A stretch of 64,000 nucleotides of DNA from a phage (PZ379177.1), one strand, 5' to 3'. Counted from the first letter of the stretch, positions 10,656-57,150 are shown. Notes: generated by a model from the letters alone, not told the origin. Translations and numbers: made by a program.

Positions 10656-11795
10656 TTAGATACCAGTCATACGGACGACTGCGAAAGGACGCTTGAGCAG
10701 AACGCCTGCTGTTGCGTTTGCGTAGTCTTCAACGTAGCTCTTAGCACGTTTCTCAACGCCCAGAGTCATGAACTTAGTCTGGACCAGCTGACTGAATACT
10801 GAACCATCATCGCTTGAGCCATCAATTGAGGAATCGATGTGATCAGCGTACAGATATGCCACATTCAGGAAAGTCGGGTCACTGCCAAGTGCGCCGTTGA
10901 GTTCCGGTGCAGATTTGATCTTCATCTTCGGATAAGTCTGGGTGATCCAGTCACGTACAGAAATACCGAAGTCGGTGGTGTTTGACAGCCAATCAATAGA
11001 GTTGGTCGGCAGCGCCAGAGTCATGTCAACCTTCTCTGGATCAATCTGGTCCTGAGAGTTTACACGAATTTGACGAACCATCAAACGGATGTCTGCAGTC
11101 ACCTGTTGGAAGGTCGCAGTAGCCCAGCCGGAAGTGGTGTTTGAAGTCATCGCCGCTGGCAGGTTTGGATCATTCAGGAAGCCGAACGTGCGGTTGTTCC
11201 CGTTGTACCAACCATAGAAGCCGATTGCGTTACGCATGATTTCCAGAGATACAGCAGCCTGCTGGCGCTTGGTTTCTGCGGAGTTCAGACGCATCGCAGA
11301 CGCGCGACCTTCTTCCAGCATGCCGACTGCCATGCCCATTTCACCGCGAACGATGGAACGGCGTTCAAAGTTTACGTTCCAGCTTGCCAGAGGAATAGCG
11401 GTGAAATCACCATATTCAACTGCGGTGCCAGCTGGTTCAACAATGCCCTGAACGATTTCTGCATCTTCCCACTGGCCAACGGTGTCAATACCAACCAGCT
11501 CGTCAATTTTACGAGCAGCGGTCATGATTTTGACGAAGCCAGGCAGCCACTGTTGCAGGAACTGCAGCGGGGTCGGGATTGATGGCGTGGTCTGCGGCGC
11601 AGTAAATGCGGCGTCACCTACGCGGAAAGCGCCTGCACGGTTTAAGTGCTCAATCTGATCACGCACAATCGCGGAATCAAACACAATACCGATACGCGCA
11701 AGCTGGGAAACAGCCGCGTCGGTCACGGATTGCATATCAAAAGGGCGCACCTTGCTCGCTGGGAGGCGAGAGTGTGTTTGGCTAATGCGAGTCAT
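10656..11795 (-). CDS. major capsid protein (putative)
   Basis: 379 aa; position after scaffold-like gene; followed by a 115-bp hairpin-containing intergenic region; composition typical of coat proteins. Confidence 0.55.
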
Positions 11796-11809
11796 TATTC
11801 ACCTGCCTA

Positions 11810-41394: not shown

Positions 41395-42477
41395 CTATTT
41401 TATGCCACCTGCACGACGATTTATCATGTCAAGTTGATTCTCAATATAAGGCATGACGATTGCTTCAACAAAAGCAGTCCAACCTTTCTTGCCTTCCCCT
41501 TTCCGGTGACAGTCGTGAGCGCAACCGAAAACGAATTCATGTTCAGCGCCAGGGATTGGGCCGCGAAAATAAGCGCCGTATGGGTCGCCGTTGGTGTGTT
41601 CTTCACCCCAAGGACAGATGATGCGGCATTTGCCTGACATGTTTTCAACAACATCGCCATCGGACCCTTCACCCATCTTATTGCGAGCAAGGATTTGCTG
41701 GGCTATTTTATACCAAACAGCATCATATTTGTATTCGTCAACGTCAATTTGAATTTCACGCTTTTGCGGCATAACGACGTGGAAACCGAAGGCTTGGCAA
41801 ATCTCTTCGATTGTGTAGCGCAAAGAATAGTCTGCATGAACAAGTCGGCAGCGGAACGGGTCGCCGTTCTCATCGACATATTTATAGGGGCCGTCGTGAG
41901 TCACACGCTTGTTGTTGATGCACCCAGGAACACGGCCCACGCGCGTTACGTCTTTAATCGTGTTGTCGCCGCCCTTCTTGAGTACCATGTTAACGAAAGA
42001 CCCAAGGAACGCTTTGAACTGAATAAGATGGTCAATCGGTTCTTTAAAGAAGTACCAAAGCTGGTGGTTGTTCGGTGAAGTCTCGACGATGACAGTCGGC
42101 TTCAGTCGCTCGAAAAAGAATTCCAAATCTAAATCGCCTTTGGACCCTTTACCGTGACCGATGTCGTCGACCATCATCGCCATACCGTGACCAAAGGCCG
42201 ACTCTGTACGCCAGTATCGCATCTCACCCGTCTTTGGGTTGGGAGACTTACGCATCGAACTGATGCAAGCATAGCCGTTTTGGTGCTGCATGAGCGGCTT
42301 GCCCAACTTCCAAGGCTTAGGCCAGAAGCTGCTGTTGATCTTCTTGCCGCGTTCGTCGGTCTGTACCGTTGCTTCAGGAGCAAACACCGTCATGACGCGC
42401 TCATCTTCTGGAATGCCTCTTTGGAGTTCTGTTAAAAACTCTTCGATTATTTTTGCTTCTTCTCTTAAACTAGCCAT
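41395..42477 (-). CDS. replication-associated protein with C-terminal Cys/His cluster (possible primase-polymerase)
   Basis: 360 aa; acidic MMVDDIGHG motif and C-terminal CPWGEEH...CAHDCH cluster; no secure family assignment. Confidence 0.35.
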   Translation of the reverse strand: MASLREEAKIIEEFLTELQRGIPEDERVMTVFAPEATVQTDERGKKINSSFWPKPWKLGKPLMQHQNGYACISSMRKSPNPKTGEMRYWRTESAFGHGMAMMVDDIGHGKGSKGDLDLEFFFERLKPTVIVETSPNNHQLWYFFKEPIDHLIQFKAFLGSFVNMVLKKGGDNTIKDVTRVGRVPGCINNKRVTHDGPYKYVDENGDPFRCRLVHADYSLRYTIEEICQAFGFHVVMPQKREIQIDVDEYKYDAVWYKIAQQILARNKMGEGSDGDVVENMSGKCRIICPWGEEHTNGDPYGAYFRGPIPGAEHEFVFGCAHDCHRKGEGKKGWTAFVEAIVMPYIENQLDMINRRAGGIK

Positions 42478-42637
42478 CTTTCTTTCCTTCGGTGATCAAT
42501 ACCTGCAGTATAATATTGAGTGATACAAAGTCAACAATATTTACCATTTAGTTCACAATTTCGATTTACTTTGCTTTATACTATATCTGCAATTATACTA
42601 TCAGAAAATATTTCCGCACTAACAAAGGTCGCCTGAA

Positions 42638-42964: not shown

Positions 42965-44148
42965 TGAGCATTCCAGAATTTAATGATGAGCCAGTGATTC
43001 AGTTTAACGCGCAACAAATCGATGCCATCGAGAAGGCCGTTGCATGGTACAAGCGATTGCAGGACGGTAAAACTACGAAGCGCGTGTTTTTCATTGCTGG
43101 CTATGCAGGGACTGGTAAAACCTCTATTGCTCGCGAGATTGTGCGCCGATGTGTCGGTGAGTACGGCGCTATCTATATTGCTCCGACCGGAAAGGCTGCA
43201 AGCCGATTAAAGCAAAAAGGCTGTCGTGGCGCTAAGACCCTTCACCAGTTCATCTATAACGTGCGCGGCGTTAACGATGACAATGAACCAATCTTCGCAA
43301 GAAAGTCAACGCTTGATGAAAGGCCGCACCTTGTCGTCCTTGATGAAGCTTCAATGGTCGGTGAGTGGGACACAGAGCGCCTTCTTGATCACCGCATCCC
43401 TGTCCTGGCATTAGGCGACATTGGACAAGTCCCTCCGGTAAAAGCCGCAGCCTACTTTACCGAAGAAGCCGTTGACGTACTGTTAACCGAAATCATGCGG
43501 CAGGGGAAAGAGTCAAACATAATCCGCGCCTCCTTCTTCGTGCGCCAAGGCAACCGACTTCCTCCGCGTGAATACGATGACGTCAAAGTATTGGCAGAAT
43601 CGCCGCGCGTTACTGCGTTGAAGAAATTCATGGGCAAAGATGATCAAATTATTTGCTCCTATAACAGCACCAAAGATAAATGGAATTCATTATTACGGCA
43701 AGTGAGCGGACGTATAACGCCAATGCCAGGAATCGGTGAGAAGGTTATTTGCACCTTCAACCAACACGGGCCAGGATTCTGTAATGGCGAGCAAGGGATT
43801 GTTATTAGCTATGAGCCAGTGCCGGACTTTGAAAGGGATGAAGATGAGTCGAATGAAATCATGTATGTTAATTTACGCTCATTGACTGATGGGAAAGATA
43901 TAAAGGTAAAGATCAATCCTCTTTCCTTCTCTACTGATCAGGAAGTGCGCAAAGAGGCCCAACGCGCTGTTGGAGGCATGGACTATGGCTATGTCATCAC
44001 GGTGCACAAATCGCAAGGCAGCGAGTGGGACAATGTGTGCGTGCTGGAAGAAATCTTGCACGGCGTTCCGTACTCCAAGATGATGTACACCGCTATCACC
44101 CGTGCTAAGAAGAATCTGACCGTGTACCGTGATTTGAAAGCGCGTTAA
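42964..44148 (+). CDS. Dda/RecD-like superfamily 1 DNA helicase
   Basis: Walker A GYAGTGKTS, Walker B VVLDEASMV, motif VI VITVHKSQGSEWDNV. Confidence 0.75.
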   Translation: MSIPEFNDEPVIQFNAQQIDAIEKAVAWYKRLQDGKTTKRVFFIAGYAGTGKTSIAREIVRRCVGEYGAIYIAPTGKAASRLKQKGCRGAKTLHQFIYNVRGVNDDNEPIFARKSTLDERPHLVVLDEASMVGEWDTERLLDHRIPVLALGDIGQVPPVKAAAYFTEEAVDVLLTEIMRQGKESNIIRASFFVRQGNRLPPREYDDVKVLAESPRVTALKKFMGKDDQIICSYNSTKDKWNSLLRQVSGRITPMPGIGEKVICTFNQHGPGFCNGEQGIVISYEPVPDFERDEDESNEIMYVNLRSLTDGKDIKVKINPLSFSTDQEVRKEAQRAVGGMDYGYVITVHKSQGSEWDNVCVLEEILHGVPYSKMMYTAITRAKKNLTVYRDLKAR

Positions 44149-44307
44149 TGTTGACGTAAATTTACGAAAAATAAAACTGAAAATCAGTTTAATTAAAGTG
44201 GCATTGCCGCCATAGTTTTTAGTTGCTACTGGCGGCGACTGAAGGCATAATTAAGTTATCCCAAACGGGGAATATAAAATAAACTAATTTATTTAAGGAC
44301 TGTGAAT

Positions 44308-45147
44308 ATGGCCGAAGCAATCAAAGTATTATCTAAAGAAGAAAAACAAGCAGCCGCAGCAGAACGTCGTCGCGTGGCTGAAGAAAAACGCCTGGCTAAA
44401 AAGAAAGAAGCCGAAGAAAAACGCCAGAAGCGTGAGCAGGAAAAACAAGCCAAGCGTGAAGAAGCTGCGCTGAAACGCAAGCAAGCTGCTGATGAGAAGG
44501 CTCAGAAGCGTGCTGAAGAAGCAGCTAAGAAAGCTAAAGAGCGTGCAGAAAAGGCTGCCGCTAAGAAGGCAGAGCGTGAAGCCGCTAAAGCCGCTAAAGA
44601 AATTGAAAAGGCAAAGGCGAAAGAAGAAGCCAAGCGCCTGAAAGCTGAGCAGGCTGCGGCCAAGAAAGCTGAGCGTGATCAAGCCCGTGCTGCAGCGAAG
44701 GCCGAAAAAGAGAAGGCAAAAGAAGAAGCTAAAGCGAAACGCAAGGCAGAGCGTGAAGCTGCTAAGATTGCGGCGAAAGAAGCTGCAGAACAGCAGAAAG
44801 AACAGCGTAAGAAAGAAGCTGAAGAACGTCGCAAAGCCATCGCAGAACGTAAGGCTGCTAAAAAGGCAAACGGTCAGCGTCGTGCAAAAGCCACTCACTT
44901 CATCTACACTGGCAATGGCCTGAGCCAGCCGCAAGAGCATTCCACCCGTGGACGCGTTCTGGCGGCGATCAAAGAAGGCGAAGTTGGCGTGGCGCAGTCT
45001 ATCGATGAGCTGGGCGAAAAAGTTAAAGATCAACTGTTTGGCGCTTCCGTTCGCTCCTACCTGAGCAAGCTGGAAGAGATGGGCCACATCGAGTTTGTCG
45101 ATGTTGAATCCAATGACGATGCCGAAGACGGTGATCAAGCGGAATAA
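44308..45147 (+). CDS. Lys/Ala/Glu-rich coiled-coil protein with globular C-terminal domain
   Basis: about 190 aa of KAE low-complexity repeat, then a non-repetitive 80-aa C-terminus; RBS AAGGA before ATG at 44308. Confidence 0.5.
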   Translation: MAEAIKVLSKEEKQAAAAERRRVAEEKRLAKKKEAEEKRQKREQEKQAKREEAALKRKQAADEKAQKRAEEAAKKAKERAEKAAAKKAEREAAKAAKEIEKAKAKEEAKRLKAEQAAAKKAERDQARAAAKAEKEKAKEEAKAKRKAEREAAKIAAKEAAEQQKEQRKKEAEERRKAIAERKAAKKANGQRRAKATHFIYTGNGLSQPQEHSTRGRVLAAIKEGEVGVAQSIDELGEKVKDQLFGASVRSYLSKLEEMGHIEFVDVESNDDAEDGDQAE

Positions 45148-45175: not shown

Positions 45176-45203
45176 GACCCACACTTGTTGTGGGTCTTTT
45201 TTC
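45176..45203 (+). terminator. rho-independent terminator
   Basis: hairpin GACCCACACTTGTTGTGGGTC followed by TTTTTTCG. Confidence 0.5.
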
Positions 45204-45281
45204 GTCTGTACTAAATAGAAATGACTTGTTGCTGTAAAATAATTTAGCTATTATACTTCTCATATCACCCACAAAGGACAA

Positions 45282-46277
45282 ATGAACATGAAACAACCTG
45301 TAATGATTATCGGCGGCGGCTTGGCAGGACTTATTACCGCGTGTCACTTCCCGAACTCTATTGTGTACGAAGCAGGGGAGCGAGCGCCACAGCACAAGGC
45401 GCTGCTACGCTTTCGCGGCGAAGAAGTAAGCCGTATTACCGGAATACCTTTTAAGGCCGTGACAGTTGACAAGGCTGTGTATTTTCGCGGTAACTACTAC
45501 CACGACCATTGCCCAATTAACCTTGCAAATATGTATTCCATGAAGGTCACCAATCAGTTTGGCAGCCGTTCAATCATGAAGCTTAAGACTGCAACGCGTT
45601 ATATTGCGCCTGATGACTTTTATGATCAGCTTGTCGACAAACTGGGTGACCGCATATTCTTTAATACTCCGGTTGATACTCTTTGCGGCTATAGCGAGAC
45701 GCCAATCATCAACACGTCGCCGCTGCCAGTAATGATGAAGCTTGCTGGGATTGATCAAAAGCTTGATTTCTCATTTGATAAAGCAAACATTCGCGTTTAC
45801 CGCTTTAAGATTAAACGTAAGTGTGATTTGTATCAGACAATTTACTTCCCTGACTACTCCGTCAGAACTTACCGCGCATCAATTACTGGTGACACACTTA
45901 TCATTGAAACCATTCCTTTGGTCAGCGTGAGTGAAGCTGCAGTTGAAGCCGCTGGCGGCATCACTCGTTACCGTGACATGAAGCTGCGCGCAGAAGTCGA
46001 CGAAGTGTTGACAGCCTTTGGCCTCTCATGGAGTGACATCGCTCTTGAAGAAGTTGAAAAGGTCGACCAGAAATATGGCAAGATTGTCGACATTCCGAAA
46101 GACTTGCGACACGCCCTACTCCTGCAGCTGACCATGGATTTAAACGTGTTTAGTGTCGGTCGATTTGCTACCTGGCGCAACATTTTGCTTGATGACGTCG
46201 CTCATGACCTTGTTGAAGTTGAAAAACTCATCAAAGCAAATAACTATCAAAAATTTGCTTATATTGCTAATAAATAA
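45282..46277 (+). CDS. FAD/NAD(P)-binding oxidoreductase (putative)
   Basis: N-terminal dinucleotide-binding motif MIIGGGLAGL. Confidence 0.5.
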   Translation: MNMKQPVMIIGGGLAGLITACHFPNSIVYEAGERAPQHKALLRFRGEEVSRITGIPFKAVTVDKAVYFRGNYYHDHCPINLANMYSMKVTNQFGSRSIMKLKTATRYIAPDDFYDQLVDKLGDRIFFNTPVDTLCGYSETPIINTSPLPVMMKLAGIDQKLDFSFDKANIRVYRFKIKRKCDLYQTIYFPDYSVRTYRASITGDTLIIETIPLVSVSEAAVEAAGGITRYRDMKLRAEVDEVLTAFGLSWSDIALEEVEKVDQKYGKIVDIPKDLRHALLLQLTMDLNVFSVGRFATWRNILLDDVAHDLVEVEKLIKANNYQKFAYIANK

Positions 46278-46342: not shown

Positions 46343-46789
46343 ATGAAACGAATCACTGGAATCGCGCTTGCCGCGACTGCTATTCTCGGCACCATGTATA
46401 TGGAAGCGACTGAAGCCGCTGTCCGTACTTCCGATTCAATCGCTGTTTACGATTGTGAAGCGATGGACGGTAAGACCGCAGCAACGACTGGTGCAAAGAT
46501 TACCACTTACATCGGTGTGAATGAGCAAGAAGGTCTGAATATTCAGATTCAGGGATTCACGGGAAAAGGTGTCAACCGGACTCCGTGGATGCAACGTTTC
46601 ACTTTCGTCCAGCCTCGTTCAACTGGCGGCTTTATCAACCTGATTGGTGAAAACCGTTCTGGTGCAGAAATCTTTACATCAATGAGTTCTAATAATGAAC
46701 CAAAGAAAAGTTTTCAGTTGCTTTATAACGCACAATTCGTTTATCATTGCGTTTTCTCTGGTGATCAGCAACTGGTAAATTACCGTTAA
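46343..46789 (+). CDS. secreted protein of unknown function
   Basis: N-terminal signal-peptide-like segment MKRITGIALAATAILG. Confidence 0.45.
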   Translation: MKRITGIALAATAILGTMYMEATEAAVRTSDSIAVYDCEAMDGKTAATTGAKITTYIGVNEQEGLNIQIQGFTGKGVNRTPWMQRFTFVQPRSTGGFINLIGENRSGAEIFTSMSSNNEPKKSFQLLYNAQFVYHCVFSGDQQLVNYR

Positions 46790-46802: not shown

Positions 46803-47576
46803 ATGAAAGTTGAATTAGTAAGATACACCCAAGATGCACTTGAACTTCTGCTGGAAACAAAGAACACGCGCATGACTGGCAAGCCTGTCTCTGAGATGAC
46901 AGAGTCAGAGAAACAAGAGCACTGGCGATATATGCTTGACACCATCAAGTCACCTTTTGACTTTGTGGACTATATCTTTGACATCACCGACGTGTCTAAG
47001 AACATGACCCATCAAATGGTGCGCACCCGCACAGGCGCATATCAAGAGCGCACCAGTCGCGCTCAGGAGTCGTCAGCGTTTGATGCGATTCGTCCGAAGG
47101 CTTTTGAACATCCTGAAGGGTCCACAAGCGTGCTTGGCGAAAAGTGGGATGATGCCATGGCGACTATTGACGCAATCTATCAAGAGTTGCGCGCGGCGGG
47201 TGCAGAAATCCAAGATGCGCGTGGCGTCCTGCCTTCGAATATGCAAACGCACATCATGGCCAAGTTCAACTTGCGCACGCTGCAACAAATGGCATCCAAC
47301 CGCCTCTGCACGCGCACTCAAGGCGAGTACCAAAACGTATTTCGCGCAATGGTTGCTGAAGTTCTTAATGTGCACCCGTGGGCAAACCCTCTCTTACAGC
47401 CGCTGTGCATCGGTATGGGTAAGTGCGCATTCCCTCGTCACGGTAAGGCCCATTGCCCTTGGTATCGTGATTGGATGGATACCACTGCACAGCAAGAAGA
47501 ATTACGCATCCAGTTTTGGGATGCCGCGCCAATCACCAATAATCCAGTTGCCAAAGATGGAGTATCAAAAGGATGA
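46803..47576 (+). CDS. ThyX-like flavin-dependent thymidylate synthase homolog (putative)
   Basis: overall resemblance to ThyX; the RHR-x7-S signature region reads RTRTGAYQERTSR, so the His appears replaced. Confidence 0.45.
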   Translation: MKVELVRYTQDALELLLETKNTRMTGKPVSEMTESEKQEHWRYMLDTIKSPFDFVDYIFDITDVSKNMTHQMVRTRTGAYQERTSRAQESSAFDAIRPKAFEHPEGSTSVLGEKWDDAMATIDAIYQELRAAGAEIQDARGVLPSNMQTHIMAKFNLRTLQQMASNRLCTRTQGEYQNVFRAMVAEVLNVHPWANPLLQPLCIGMGKCAFPRHGKAHCPWYRDWMDTTAQQEELRIQFWDAAPITNNPVAKDGVSKG

Positions 47577-48421
47577 AAACCTTAAACATTTTTGATTTAG
47601 ACGGCACCATATTTAATGACGCTTGGCGTTTACAATACATCGATAAAGAAAACAAGAACTATGATGGCTATCACGAGCGATTGACTCATGATGATCACTT
47701 TCCTAATATAGCTTCGCAAGTAGGCTGGTCACTAAGTGAAGGCGCTGTTGAGTTCTGGACAGCGCGACCTAACAAGTGGCGTGCGACTACAACTAAGAAG
47801 TTGGAAGATACTTTCGGATGTATGCCTGGCGTAATCATACGCATGCGCGGCGATGATGATTTGCGTAGCGCGGCAGCATTGAAAGCAGATTACATGCGTC
47901 GACTCCCTTCAGGCTATGATCAGGTGTATGTGTACGACGACCGCGCAGACGTTTTGGATGCCATGATCATTGAAGCGCGTCCAAAGACTGGCGTCACGTT
48001 CCGATTCTACCTTTGCACCAATGGTAGCTTCACGGAATACCACACACTTTTTAACCGCTCTAATAAAGCGAAAGTGCCTACTACGCAGGACACGCTGGGA
48101 GATTCGTTAGAAGCAACCAAGCCTGCCACCGCCGCCGATATTCTTGATGCGATGGCCGCGACCTTCCGTGAGCGCAACGCCGTTTATGGCGATAACGCTG
48201 TGATGGTAGGTCAGGTTATGCAGGTGCTTTTCCCTAATGGCGTAACGTTGAAAACGCCGGAAGACTACCACATGTGGCATCTGTTCGAGCTTAAGATTGT
48301 CAAGCTTACACGCTTTGCAATCAGCGGCCTGAAGCACGAAGACTCTATACACGATGATGGTGTTTACAGCGCCATGTGTGAACGTCTTGTCAACACCCAT
48401 AATATTAATTTCAATAAATAG
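47573..48421 (+). CDS. HAD-superfamily hydrolase fused to C-terminal domain of unknown function
   Basis: HAD motif I IFDLDGTIFN near N-terminus; ATGA overlap with upstream gene. Confidence 0.55.
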   Translation: MKTLNIFDLDGTIFNDAWRLQYIDKENKNYDGYHERLTHDDHFPNIASQVGWSLSEGAVEFWTARPNKWRATTTKKLEDTFGCMPGVIIRMRGDDDLRSAAALKADYMRRLPSGYDQVYVYDDRADVLDAMIIEARPKTGVTFRFYLCTNGSFTEYHTLFNRSNKAKVPTTQDTLGDSLEATKPATAADILDAMAATFRERNAVYGDNAVMVGQVMQVLFPNGVTLKTPEDYHMWHLFELKIVKLTRFAISGLKHEDSIHDDGVYSAMCERLVNTHNINFNK

Positions 48422-56289: not shown

Positions 56290-57150
56290 ATGTCTAAGAA
56301 AGAAACTACCGAAGTTGCAGTGAAAAACACCCAGATGTCCGCTATGGCTGATTTTGTCGACATGACCGATTTTGGCGCTGGTTTTGAAGGTGCCGATGCC
56401 GATGCATATGCCATTCCTTTTATCGTCGTGCTGCAGAAGATGTCTCCTATGGTCGACGAAGATGATCCAAAACACGTTCCTGGCGCAAAAGCTGGCATGC
56501 TTTACAACACCGTTACTGGTGAGTTGTATGACGGCAAGAAAGGCGTGCAGATCATTCCTTGCGCATTCAAACGTACCTTCATTCTTTGGGGCGGTCGCGA
56601 GTCCGACGATAAAGGCTTTAAAGGTGAATTTACCAAAGAGCACGTTGATGCAGAAGTAGCGGCAGGCCGCGCTGTTGAGATCAACGGTAAAGTATTTGTG
56701 CCGGACGAAAACGGCAAGGTGCACGAGAAGAAGTCTCCTTACTACGCAGATACACGTAACCACTTCGTAATTCTGTTGAACGAAGAAACGGGTGAATTTG
56801 GTAGCGCAATGCTGTCTTTGACTTCTTCCATGATCAAGCCGTCTCGCATGCTGATGACCGCTCTGCAGCAGAAGAAAGTTCAGACTCCGCAAGGTCTGAA
56901 AACGCCGCCGACCTTTATGAACATCGTTCGCATGGGTACTGCATCCCAGTCCAAAGACGGCAACACCTGGTCCGTTCTTAAGTTTGAGCTGGAAGGTCTG
57001 GTGCAGGACAAAGGTCTGTACGAAGTCGCCAAGGCATTCCACAACGACGTAGTTGGCGGCAACGTTAACATCGACCGCAGCAAGCAAGAAGAAGCAAGTG
57101 GCGCTGCTGGCCCTGTCAATGAAACTCCGACCGACGCAGAAGAGTTTTAA
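56290..57150 (+). CDS. possible ssDNA-binding protein
   Basis: acidic C-terminal tail ending in Phe (TPTDAEEF), as in T7 gp2.5-type SSBs; replication-module context. Confidence 0.35.
   Translation: MSKKETTEVAVKNTQMSAMADFVDMTDFGAGFEGADADAYAIPFIVVLQKMSPMVDEDDPKHVPGAKAGMLYNTVTGELYDGKKGVQIIPCAFKRTFILWGGRESDDKGFKGEFTKEHVDAEVAAGRAVEINGKVFVPDENGKVHEKKSPYYADTRNHFVILLNEETGEFGSAMLSLTSSMIKPSRMLMTALQQKKVQTPQGLKTPPTFMNIVRMGTASQSKDGNTWSVLKFELEGLVQDKGLYEVAKAFHNDVVGGNVNIDRSKQEEASGAAGPVNETPTDAEEF

What the first reader, a model, noticed from the sequence alone, without database searches (positions are those of the whole stretch)
44308..45147. Lys/Ala/Glu-rich coiled-coil protein (histone-H1- or TolA-like composition) with a distinct C-terminal domain
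About 190 residues are almost pure K/A/E/R repeat. The repeat is so regular that the opposite strand also reads open (the 44329..45138 minus-strand ORF is an artefact of this). A non-repetitive 80-residue C-terminus follows. Such proteins can act as DNA-condensing factors, spacers or scaffolds; its place between the helicase and the metabolic genes suggests an early or replication-associated role.
Basis: seen in the sequence. Interest (0 to 1): 0.4.

Follow-up and report, generated by a model that had tools for sequence, protein, structure and literature searches.

The report
Abundant phage protein: charged helix plus winged-helix
This is a real, heavily expressed gene of an E. coli phage (genus Wifcevirus) that encodes a roughly 27-nm two-faced charged helix joined to a small winged-helix-like domain; it is conserved in the whole PB1-like phage family, is detected in purified virions, is wrongly labelled "TolA", and has no tested function.

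Summary
ORF 44308..45147 (+) encodes 279 aa. Residues 1-188 are 92% K/A/E/R/Q, followed by a distinct C-terminal domain and an acidic tail. The minus-strand ORF is an artefact.

The low-complexity part is not a true repeat, and it is not a canonical coiled coil. AlphaFold2 predicts one unbroken helix (residues 10-188). Lys/Arg lie in an 11-residue register on one face and Glu on the opposite face. This pattern is conserved across relatives although the sequence is not.

The C-terminal domain models confidently as a winged-helix-like fold. It has no Pfam or PDB sequence match.

The window is a Wifcevirus. The gene is conserved, in fixed synteny, across the PB1-like family (Lindbergviridae), and the pattern scan confirmed no relative in bacterial genomes.

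It has its own sigma70-like promoter and terminator, and the strongest codon bias in the window. Published mass spectrometry found the identical protein, unprocessed, in CsCl-purified virions.

Best reading (confidence about 0.35): an abundant DNA-architectural protein that is also carried in virions. It is not TolA and not histone H1.

The parts
44223..44251 (+). sigma70-like promoter TTGCTA-17 nt-CATAAT, ending about 56 nt upstream of the ATG
   Evidence: Consensus scan, 9 of 12 matches. A TTGnnn-17-nATAAT pair ends at about -48 to -57 in the window and six diverged relatives (L018, L020, L021, L024, L034, LBL3). By eye a similar pair is seen in others. The best-match score alone is not above shuffles (8.6 vs 8.25), so this is suggestive only.
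44295..44299 (+). Shine-Dalgarno AAGGA, 8 nt before the ATG at 44308
   Evidence: Read directly from the sequence. Annotated as a ribosome-binding site at the equivalent place in phage Mansfield. It favours the ATG at 44308 over the GTG at 44302 listed by the ORF finder.
44308..45147 (+). CDS, 279 aa, 31.1 kDa, pI 9.6; PHROG 4765 (unknown function); deposited as 'TolA protein', 'hypothetical protein' or 'putative structural protein' in relatives
   Evidence: (E = 2.4e-84). Purifying selection: 63 of 66 variable sites are at codon position 3. Peptides were detected by mass spectrometry.
44335..44871 (+). Residues 10-188: one uninterrupted predicted alpha-helix (about 27 nm) with a Lys/Arg stripe and an opposite Glu stripe in an 11-residue (3.68 residues per turn) register
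   Evidence: AlphaFold2 helix H10-188 with block-mean pLDDT of 86-96 over residues 11-180. K/R periodicity of 3.7: power 3.24 against a shuffle 95th percentile of 1.86. 43 of 65 K/R fall at hendecad positions 0, 3, 7 and 10, and E/D lie at a phase of -176 degrees. The same period was found in 16 of 20 family representatives (exceeding the shuffle 95th percentile in 14) and in 18 of 20 scorable loci, 19 from IMG/VR plus LBL3.
44785..44871 (+). Residues about 160-188: the sequence-conserved basic end of the helix (KEQRKKEAEERRKAIAERKAAKKA), leading into the GxRRxKATH motif
   Evidence: Full-length alignment of 16 diverged orthologues. Consensus: K.aRk.eaeeRr.aiaeRkaatK..G.RR.kATH. The rest of the helix does not align.
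44878..45102 (+). Residues about 191-265: winged-helix-like domain (strand 197-200, H1 213-222, strand 229-231, H2 232-243, H3 248-257, strand 261-264)
45103..45144 (+). Residues 266-279: acidic tail (VESNDDAEDGDQAE, net charge -7)
   Evidence: Acidic tails of variable length occur in most relatives but are absent in some. The C-terminal tryptic peptide ending at E279 was seen 162 times in virion mass spectrometry.
45176..45206 (+). Intrinsic terminator (8-bp GC-rich stem GACCCACA/TGTGGGTC, then TTTTTT)
   Evidence: Annotated as a terminator at the same place in WFC, Mansfield and LBL3.
44329..45138 (-). Antisense 269-codon ORF: not a gene
   Evidence: 12-29 amino-acid differences among isolates against 0-2 for the sense frame, and an internal stop in phage Mansfield. 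It is expected from the sense protein's amino-acid and codon usage.

Best explanation
The gene encodes a very abundant, phage-specific architectural protein that acts on DNA.

Proposed mechanism (inferred):
- The C-terminal module is a sequence-conserved basic helix end followed by a winged-helix-like domain with an HTH-type Gly turn and invariant Arg/Lys. This module is proposed to bind nucleic acid.
- The preceding helix of about 27 nm, with a Lys/Arg face and an opposite Glu/Ala face, is proposed to act as a rigid arm.
- The arm would either pair side by side with other copies (basic face against acidic face) or lie along a polyanion. Many copies could then bridge, space or coat phage DNA.
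- The gene is proposed to be transcribed by host RNA polymerase from its own promoter, inside the replication and nucleotide-metabolism module.

What is shown: the gene is real and under purifying selection; it carries high-expression signals; the helix and the fold are predicted with confidence; synteny is conserved; and some full-length protein ends up in purified virions.

What is inferred: DNA binding, self-association and the biological role.
For: Expression:
- The gene has the strongest codon bias of the 46 ORFs of at least 150 aa in the window (Arg 25/25 CGT/CGC, Leu 9/10 CTG). This exceeds the major head protein, decoration protein and tail sheath.
- It has its own sigma70-like promoter at a position recurring in relatives, a strong ribosome-binding site and its own terminator.

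Protein detected:
- The identical sequence was found in CsCl-purified vB_Eco4M-7: 7 peptides, 25.8% coverage (only about 33-43% is tryptically accessible) and 422 PSMs, against 333 for the major head protein and 559 for the portal. Peptides come from both ends. It was weakly detected in ECML-117.
- The LBL3 orthologue was deposited as a 'putative structural protein'.
- The orthologue (ORF69) is missing from LiCl/DNase-treated, DNA-free ghosts of Pbunavirus SCUT-S1, although the flanking helicase was seen there.

Fold:
- The domain is winged-helix-like, with conserved basic residues on the putative recognition helix and a conserved basic helix before it.
- There are weak hints, always in the same register, to the nucleoid-associated protein YejK/NA37.

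Helix: the hendecad charge stripes and the length (about 155-190 residues in most members) are conserved while the sequence is not.

Context: the order primase(-) | Dda-like helicase | this gene | FAD/UGM-like gene | ThyX is conserved in the 26 of 28 IMG/VR loci that retain a recognisable flanking gene. The C-terminal domain is 49-64% identical in the non-Wifcevirus loci.
Against: - Foldseek found nothing significant in the PDB.
- The YejK link stays below threshold: at most 16.4 bits against a 24.6 cut-off, and hhalign probability 32%.
- The helix is only mildly basic in most relatives (LBL3 +5), so simple polycation condensation is unlikely.
- DNA-bound proteins cannot pass the portal during packaging (established knowledge). 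Virion presence therefore needs a separate loading route or external sticking.
- The same Eco4M-7 preparation also contained a helicase and a glyoxalase-family protein, so contamination is possible.
- The KPP12 SDS-PAGE analysis identified three virion bands, ORF23 (called the major structural protein), ORF22 and ORF30, and this protein was not among them.
- The Pa193 cryo-EM paper never mentions gp84 in its main text.
Confidence: 0.35

Rival explanations
1. Virion cargo or internal protein. The protein is loaded into the procapsid, for example by binding the inner capsid surface or the scaffold. It is released with the genome into the next host, where it acts at the very start of infection, protecting or organising incoming DNA or acting on a host target.
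For: High spectral counts for the full-length protein in CsCl-purified Eco4M-7 virions. 'Putative structural protein' annotation in LBL3 and many Pbunavirus records. Absent from DNA-emptied SCUT-S1 ghosts. Wifcevirus phages resist the tested restriction-modification systems except EcoP1_I without a known protection mechanism (PMC11990801).
Against: The gene sits in the replication module behind a sigma70-type promoter, not in the structural module. Detection was weak in ECML-117 (2 peptides). Non-structural enzymes were found in the same preparations. It is not mentioned among the resolved Pa193 components. Restriction resistance is more simply explained by the thymidine hypermodification now shown for Pbunavirus. 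A T=9 head holding about 68 kb leaves little spare room (inference).
Confidence: 0.2
2. Replisome or replication-factory tether. The winged-helix-like domain and acidic tail bind a protein partner such as the adjacent Dda-like helicase, the primase or the polymerase, as RPA32C or the acidic tails of phage SSBs do. The long helix would be a spacer or ruler.
Against: The acidic tail is missing in several family members. Codon bias and expression signals suggest amounts far above those of replisome components. Conserved surface residues of the domain are mostly basic. The protein is found in virions.
Confidence: 0.12
3. Transcription regulator. The winged-helix domain recognises specific phage or host promoters, in the manner of MotA or MarR/ArsR-type regulators, and switches early to middle or late transcription.
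For: Winged-helix-like fold with an HTH-type Gly turn. Pbunavirus 14-1 has a second, non-sigma70 promoter class (5'-CTGGG-3' core) whose factor is not fully defined (PMC10914365).
Against: Regulators are rarely the most codon-biased gene of a phage or abundant in virions. A helix of about 180 residues has no precedent in such regulators. For 14-1, gp12 is the published candidate for redirecting RNA polymerase.
Confidence: 0.08
4. Capsid scaffolding or core protein: an elongated, charged, helical protein whose C-terminal helix-turn-helix binds the coat protein, as in P22 gp8 or T4 gp22.
For: Size (279 aa), extreme helicity and charge, a C-terminal HTH-like module, very high expression and presence in virion preparations.
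Against: The gene lies more than 30 kb from the head genes (major head protein at 10659..11798). The Pa193 study assigns the scaffold-like internal helix to gp24, next to the capsid gene (PMC11456595). The protein is unprocessed in virions.
Confidence: 0.06
5. A TolA homologue that acts in the cell envelope, as many database records state.
For: Only the K/A/E-rich composition resembles TolA domain II, which is the basis of the deposited name.
Against: No hydrophobic anchor: maximum 19-residue hydropathy is 0.61 against 2.45 for E. coli TolA. No match to TolA domain III. Composition-corrected BLAST gives E = 0.18. The K/R periodicity differs (5.3 in TolA domain II against 3.7 here). Pfam finds nothing.
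Confidence: 0.01

Closest known systems
PHROG 4765 / orthologues in Lindbergviridae (LBL3 ORF66, 14-1 gp67, Pa193 gp84, SCUT-S1 ORF69, vB_Eco4M-7_83, ECML-117 gp81, BcepF1 'TolA protein')
   Same: True orthologues. The architecture is the same: charged helix, GxRRxKATH motif, winged-helix-like domain, usually an acidic tail. The genomic position is the same. The C-terminal domain is 47-64% identical in the Pbunavirus, Kylevirus, Myosmarvirus, Tabernariusvirus, Carpasinavirus and Bcepfunavirus representatives compared, and the Eco4M-7, ECML-117 and WFC proteins are identical.
   Different: Nothing essential differs. The helix sequence is not conserved, and the net charge here (+25) is the highest in the family. 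None of these proteins has a tested function.
Winged-helix (wHTH) domains such as PerR/Fur, MecI/BlaI, ArsR, RPA32C and ScpB
   Different: No sequence-level relationship to any Pfam, NCBIfam or PDB family. An extra N-terminal strand replaces the usual beta-hairpin wing. The domain is fused to a helix of about 180 residues. DNA binding is untested.
Linker histone H1/H5
   Same: Similar overall idea: a winged-helix globular domain joined to a long Lys/Ala-rich extension, in an abundant protein.
   Different: The extension is N-terminal, 21% Glu, Pro-free and helical, with segregated charge stripes. No Linker_histone match was found, and the Foldseek hit to the yeast Hho1p globular domain has E = 3.
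E. coli TolA domain II
   Same: A long Ala/Lys/Glu-rich helical segment. This is the reason for the deposited name.
   Different: No membrane anchor, no TolA domain III, no tol-pal context, no significant alignment and a different charge periodicity.
ER/K single alpha-helix (SAH) domains (myosin VI/X, caldesmon)
   Same: Very high E/K/R content, almost no hydrophobic residues, and a prediction as one long stable helix.
   Different: SAH domains place E and K/R at i/i+4 on the same face so that they form salt bridges. Here like charges stack: opposite-charge pairs are depleted at i+7 and i+8 (z = -2.3 and -2.7). This gives one basic and one acidic face, and i+4 pairs are only weakly enriched (z = 1.7).
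Abundant phage-encoded DNA-architectural proteins, e.g. SPO1 TF1 (HU-type, prefers hmU DNA) (from my own knowledge, not tested here)
   Same: A functional analogy only: a highly expressed small protein of a phage whose relatives carry modified thymidine, encoded among replication and nucleotide-metabolism genes.
   Different: Unrelated fold (TF1 is HU-like). No evidence here for a preference for modified DNA.
Nucleoid-associated protein YejK/NdpA (Pfam NA37)
   Same: A stretch of about 40 residues (strand, H1, strand, H2) aligns in the same register to YejK 208-251 in the profile, Pfam and hhalign comparisons run.

Membership tests
TolA | N-terminal transmembrane anchor (domain I) | tested here: not met
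   Maximum 19-residue Kyte-Doolittle hydropathy is 0.61, against 2.45 for E. coli TolA.
TolA | C-terminal TolA domain III | tested here: not met
   Pfam finds 0 families at E <= 0.1. BLASTP of the C-terminal domain against E. coli TolA gives no hit at E <= 10.
TolA | Sequence homology of the helical domain II beyond composition | tested here: not met
   Composition-corrected BLASTP gives a best E of 0.18. K/R periodicity is 5.3 in TolA domain II against 3.7 here.
Linker histone H1/H5 | Globular domain matching the Linker_histone family | tested here: not met
   No Pfam hit. The only H1 structure hit is 1uss at Foldseek E = 3.0.
Linker histone H1/H5 | Strongly basic Lys/Ala/Pro-rich tail with few acidic residues | tested here: not met
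   39 Glu + 2 Asp in 187 residues and no Pro. Net charge is +25 here and +4 to +13 in most relatives.
Winged-helix fold (structural class) | Three-helix bundle with an H2-turn-H3 motif packed on a small beta-sheet | tested here: met
Winged-helix DNA-binding proteins (function) | Binds DNA through H3 and the wing | not testable with these tools
   Only indirect support: invariant R249 and K254 on H3, the RR motif, and the conserved basic helix before the domain.
NA37 / YejK nucleoid-associated proteins | Match to PF04245 above the gathering score, or a significant profile-profile match | tested here: inconclusive
   Three of 20 family members hit profile positions 214-264 at 11.7-16.4 bits (cut-off 24.6). 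PDB profile search E = 0.3. hhalign probability 32% over 39 columns.
Canonical coiled coil | Heptad (or hendecad) pattern of hydrophobic core residues | tested here: not met
   5.9% L/I/V/M/F. Apolar periodicity is not above shuffles. The hendecad a/d/h positions are occupied by Lys/Arg. Oligomerisation itself was not tested.
ER/K single alpha-helix (SAH) domain | Long E/K/R-rich helix stabilised by i to i+4 (i+3) opposite-charge pairs | tested here: inconclusive
   A helix is predicted, but i+3 and i+4 opposite-charge pairs are only z = 1.7-1.8 above shuffles, and the charges are segregated onto opposite faces.
Phage scaffolding protein | Encoded next to the major capsid gene; leaves or is cleaved on maturation | tested here: not met
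   The gene is more than 30 kb from the head genes. Peptides from both ends are present in mature virion preparations.
PHROG 4765 | Full-length match to the family profile | tested here: met
   E = 2.4e-84 over residues 1-279. The C-terminal 89 aa alone give E = 7.7e-44.

The most novel reading that the evidence does not exclude
The protein is the founding example of a virion-carried phage 'chromatin' protein specific to PB1-like phages. The basic helix end plus winged-helix head would grip the (probably thymidine-hypermodified) phage DNA. The 27-nm two-faced helices would zip basic face to acidic face into a lattice that coats or bridges the genome. This could contribute to the unexplained breadth of defence resistance and the very short latent period reported for Wifcevirus.
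Probability: 0.1. Interest if true: 0.75.

Novelty: new variant of a known kind. Interest (0 to 1): 0.4.

Why it matters
[quoted passage not shown] This gene is conserved across at least seven genera of the family. It appears to be one of the most strongly expressed genes and is recovered from purified virions. Even so, it is annotated as 'TolA', 'hypothetical' or 'structural', and no experiment addresses it.

Correcting the TolA label is useful for annotation. If the protein organises or accompanies the phage genome, it would bear on how these phages package, deliver and protect hypermodified DNA. The charge-striped hendecad helix is also an unusual protein design that differs from both coiled coils and SAH domains.

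Tried and rejected
- The word-indexed protein search with the C-terminal domain returned only 3 hits. The exhaustive HMMER search was needed and gave 27 representatives.
- Sequence searches of the PDB with the single sequence and with the profile found nothing significant. Pfam and NCBIfam found nothing.
- Foldseek against the PDB found nothing significant. Against BFVD it found only family members. The afdb50 library was not available.
- I followed the YejK/NA37 lead with a database search and profile-profile comparison. The listed homologues were all at least 81% identical, so the profile gained nothing. Probability stayed at 32%, and the lead is left as inconclusive.
- The search for related loci failed with the 20-sequence alignment. 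With a 6-sequence alignment it found 28 viral loci and no confirmed bacterial locus. This was a single peptide pattern, so absence from bacteria is not proven.
- TolA, H1, canonical coiled coil and scaffolding protein were considered and rejected on the tests listed under membership.
- A true DNA or protein repeat was rejected.
- Literature that could not be read: Ceyssens et al. 2009, the source of the 'structural protein' label for LBL3 ORF66, is not held. The supplementary tables of the Pa193, FoX6 and ONT-cappable-seq papers are not held. So virion presence in Pbunavirus and the timing of the transcript could not be checked.
- The promoter score is not statistically above shuffles. Only its recurring position is suggestive.

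Full report
**What the window is.** A 4-kb stretch around the finding is 95-96% identical to about 29 Escherichia and Shigella phages of the genus Wifcevirus (WFC, WFH, FEC19, ECML-117, vB_Eco4M-7, Bas98-100). In those records the gene is called 'hypothetical protein' or 'TolA protein'. Wifcevirus belongs with Pbunavirus (PB1-like phages) and other genera to the new family Lindbergviridae (PMC12451628).

**The observation.**
- ORF 44308..45147 (+) encodes 279 aa (31.1 kDa, pI 9.6). An AAGGA ribosome-binding site lies 8 nt upstream of the ATG.
- Residues 1-188 are 92% K/A/E/R/Q, with no Pro or Gly and a net charge of +25.
- The next 76 residues have ordinary composition, and the last 16 have a net charge of -8.
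- In eight isolates the gene is always 840 nt. Of 66 variable nucleotides, 63 are at codon position 3, including 47 of 49 in the low-complexity part. The whole protein is therefore under strong purifying selection.

**The antisense ORF.**
- The minus-strand ORF 44329..45138 accumulates 12-29 amino-acid changes among the same isolates, and it carries a stop in phage Mansfield.
- It stays open because only sense codons TTA, CTA or TCA can close that frame, and this gene has one.
- Re-coding the same protein at random keeps at least 190 antisense codons open in 69% of trials. Only 1.3% reach the observed 272. The remainder therefore reflects codon bias, not a repeat.
- There is in fact no regular repeat at the DNA level.

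**The long helix.**
- AlphaFold2 predicts one uninterrupted helix from residue 10 to 188 (block-mean pLDDT of 86-96 over residues 11-180). That is about 27 nm.
- It is not a canonical coiled coil. Large hydrophobic residues make up 5.9%, and apolar residues show no significant periodicity.
- Lys/Arg instead show a significant period of 3.7 residues (power 3.24 against a shuffle 95th percentile of 1.86).
- Written in rows of eleven, 43 of 65 Lys/Arg fall at positions 0, 3, 7 and 10. Glu/Asp never occur at positions 3, 7 or 10. The acidic residues sit 176 degrees away.
- Opposite-charge pairs are depleted at i+7 and i+8 and only weakly enriched at i+3 and i+4. This is the reverse of the design of ER/K single alpha-helices.
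- The helix is thus two-faced, one basic and one acidic/alanine.
- The same 3.65-3.70 period appears in 16 of 20 representatives of the family (exceeding the shuffle 95th percentile in 14) and in 18 of 20 scorable loci, 19 from IMG/VR plus LBL3. The helix length is mostly 155-190 residues, while the sequence itself does not align.
- The net charge is small in most relatives (for example +5 in LBL3). The conserved property is therefore the pattern, not basicity.
- Only the last 30 residues or so of the helix (KEQRKKEAEERRKAIAERKAAKKA) are sequence-conserved.

**The C-terminal domain.**
- An exhaustive HMMER search of 1.84 billion representatives found only 27 clusters. The 19 longer representatives I retrieved (168-354 aa) all show the same architecture: a charged N-terminal part, a GxRRxKATH motif, the domain, and usually an acidic tail.
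- With a 20-sequence alignment, AlphaFold2 gives a confident model (mean pLDDT 86, core 94-96): strand, H1, strand, H2, turn, H3, strand.
- Foldseek finds nothing significant in the PDB, and only family members among viral models.
- Pfam, NCBIfam and PDB sequence searches are empty.
- Invariant residues include an RR pair, S-x-R-G at the start of H1, a Gly in the H2-H3 turn, and R249 and K254 on H3.
- A 40-residue stretch repeatedly aligns in one register with the nucleoid-associated protein YejK. Every score is below threshold, so I treat this as an unconfirmed lead.

**Distribution and context.**
- tblastn with the domain hits 357 phage records. These cover Wifcevirus, about 300 Pbunavirus, Kylevirus, Myosmarvirus, Tabernariusvirus, Carpasinavirus and Burkholderia phages.
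- The pattern scan confirmed no relative among the genomes of 185,579 bacterial and archaeal species.
- In the 26 of 28 IMG/VR loci that retain a recognisable flanking gene, the order is the same: RepB-type primase (opposite strand), Dda-like helicase, this gene, a FAD/UGM-like gene, then ThyX. The C-terminal domain is 49-64% identical in the non-Wifcevirus loci.

**Expression.**
- The gene has its own terminator (45176-45206) and a sigma70-like promoter (44223-44251). Its position recurs in diverged relatives, although the score alone is not above chance.
- Its codon bias is the strongest of the 46 ORFs of at least 150 aa in the window (Arg 25/25 CGT/CGC, Leu 9/10 CTG). This is ahead of the major head protein, the decoration protein and the tail sheath.

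**Virion proteomics.**
- Mass spectrometry of CsCl-purified vB_Eco4M-7, whose protein is identical to the one in this window, detected 7 peptides at 25.8% coverage. Complete tryptic digestion could yield only about 33-43%.
- The supplementary table lists 422 spectra for this protein, against 333 for the 379-aa major head protein and 559 for the portal. They include the C-terminal peptide ending at E279 and, at low confidence (PEP 0.29), an N-terminal peptide (residues 11-20). The protein is therefore not processed at its C-terminus, and probably not at its N-terminus.
- ECML-117 gave only 2 peptides.
- The LBL3 orthologue was deposited as a 'putative structural protein'.
- In Pbunavirus SCUT-S1, ghosts emptied of DNA with LiCl and DNase gave 31 proteins, including the neighbouring helicase, but not the orthologue ORF69.
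- These data show that the protein is made and associates with virion preparations. They do not show where it sits, because non-structural enzymes were also present in the same preparations.

**Interpretation.** Several features point to a stoichiometric, architectural role on DNA rather than an enzymatic or regulatory one:
- very high expression signals;
- a position in the replication module;
- a winged-helix-like head preceded by a conserved basic helix;
- a rigid, length-conserved, two-faced arm;
- recovery from virions but not from DNA-free ghosts.

I put this at about 0.35. The steps from fold to DNA binding, and from charge stripes to self-association, are inference.

The rivals are:
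- a true internal cargo protein delivered to the next host (0.2);
- a replisome tether using the winged helix and acidic tail for protein binding (0.12);
- a transcription factor (0.08);
- a scaffolding protein (0.06);
- TolA (0.01, refuted).

One physical caveat applies. DNA-bound proteins cannot pass the portal during packaging, so virion presence would need a separate loading route or external binding.

**Comparison with known families.** The protein is a member of PHROG 4765, which has no assigned function. It is not TolA: no membrane anchor, no domain III and no significant alignment. It is not a linker histone: no family match, and the extension is Glu-rich and helical. It shares the winged-helix fold class but no sequence family. 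The helix resembles SAH domains in composition but has the opposite charge arrangement. I therefore rate it a new variant of a known kind: a winged-helix protein with an unusual charge-striped hendecad helix.

**Wider context.**
- Pbunavirus DNA was recently shown to carry hypermodified thymidine (bioRxiv 10.1101/2025.03.31.646159).
- The genes just downstream (UGM-like, ThyX, PNK-like) are candidates for such a modification pathway. That would explain the restriction resistance more simply than this protein does.
- Whether the protein prefers modified DNA is an open, testable question.

Noticed in passing
window 45282..46277 (+), with 46803..47576 and 47573..48421: The 331-aa gene directly downstream (PHROG 4828, unknown function) is annotated as a UDP-galactopyranose-mutase-like FAD protein in phage Mansfield. 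It is recognisable directly downstream of this gene in 26 of 28 IMG/VR loci (plus LBL3 and Pa193). Together with ThyX and a PNK-like gene it may form a thymidine-hypermodification module. Sugar-derived T modifications were recently reported for Pbunavirus, and Wifcevirus restriction resistance is unexplained.
   Followed up: partly
window 56290..57150 (+): A 286-aa ORF (PHROG 2402, unknown function) has the third-strongest codon bias in the window (Arg 100% CGT/CGC, Leu 60% CTG). It is probably another very abundant protein of unknown role.
   Followed up: partly
window 46343..46789 (+): A 148-aa ORF with a signal-peptide-like N-terminus (MKRITGIALAATAILGTMYMEA) sits among the nucleotide-metabolism genes. 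It has no Pfam or PHROG match and is not recognisable outside Wifcevirus in the loci compared.
   Followed up: no
loci L023, L026, L037, L038, L039 (N-termini of orthologues): Several orthologues begin with His-rich stretches (for example MSHGHHHHHEN and MSHAHGHHHNHEHH) that are absent from the window protein. This may be a metal-binding or interaction tag.
   Followed up: no
window 44198..44213, and 44134..44162: The helicase-to-gene spacer (160 nt) contains a short GC hairpin followed by a T-rich run (a weak terminator-like site) and a second weak promoter-like match overlapping the helicase stop. The 5'UTR of about 50 nt has a CCCAA-type motif that recurs in relatives.
   Followed up: no
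window 41395..42477 (-): A RepB-type DNA primase (PF16793, E = 1.6e-36) is transcribed divergently from the helicase operon. The divergent intergenic region at 42478..42637 is a likely early control region.
   Followed up: no
protein P0001 (NCBI 'Escherichia coli' BOU83_005149, partial): A 147-aa partial protein filed under E. coli is 100% identical to the C-terminal part of this phage protein. This indicates phage DNA in a bacterial assembly on a 1.1-kb contig.
   Followed up: no
vB_Eco4M-7 virion mass spectrometry (PMC7048862, supplementary file 3): The CsCl-purified virion preparation also contains non-structural proteins (a helicase, a glyoxalase-family protein and, in ECML-117, a 3-oxoacyl reductase). 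Either these phages package several enzymes, or the preparations carry lysate proteins. This affects how far any 'virion protein' call in this family can be trusted.
   Followed up: partly
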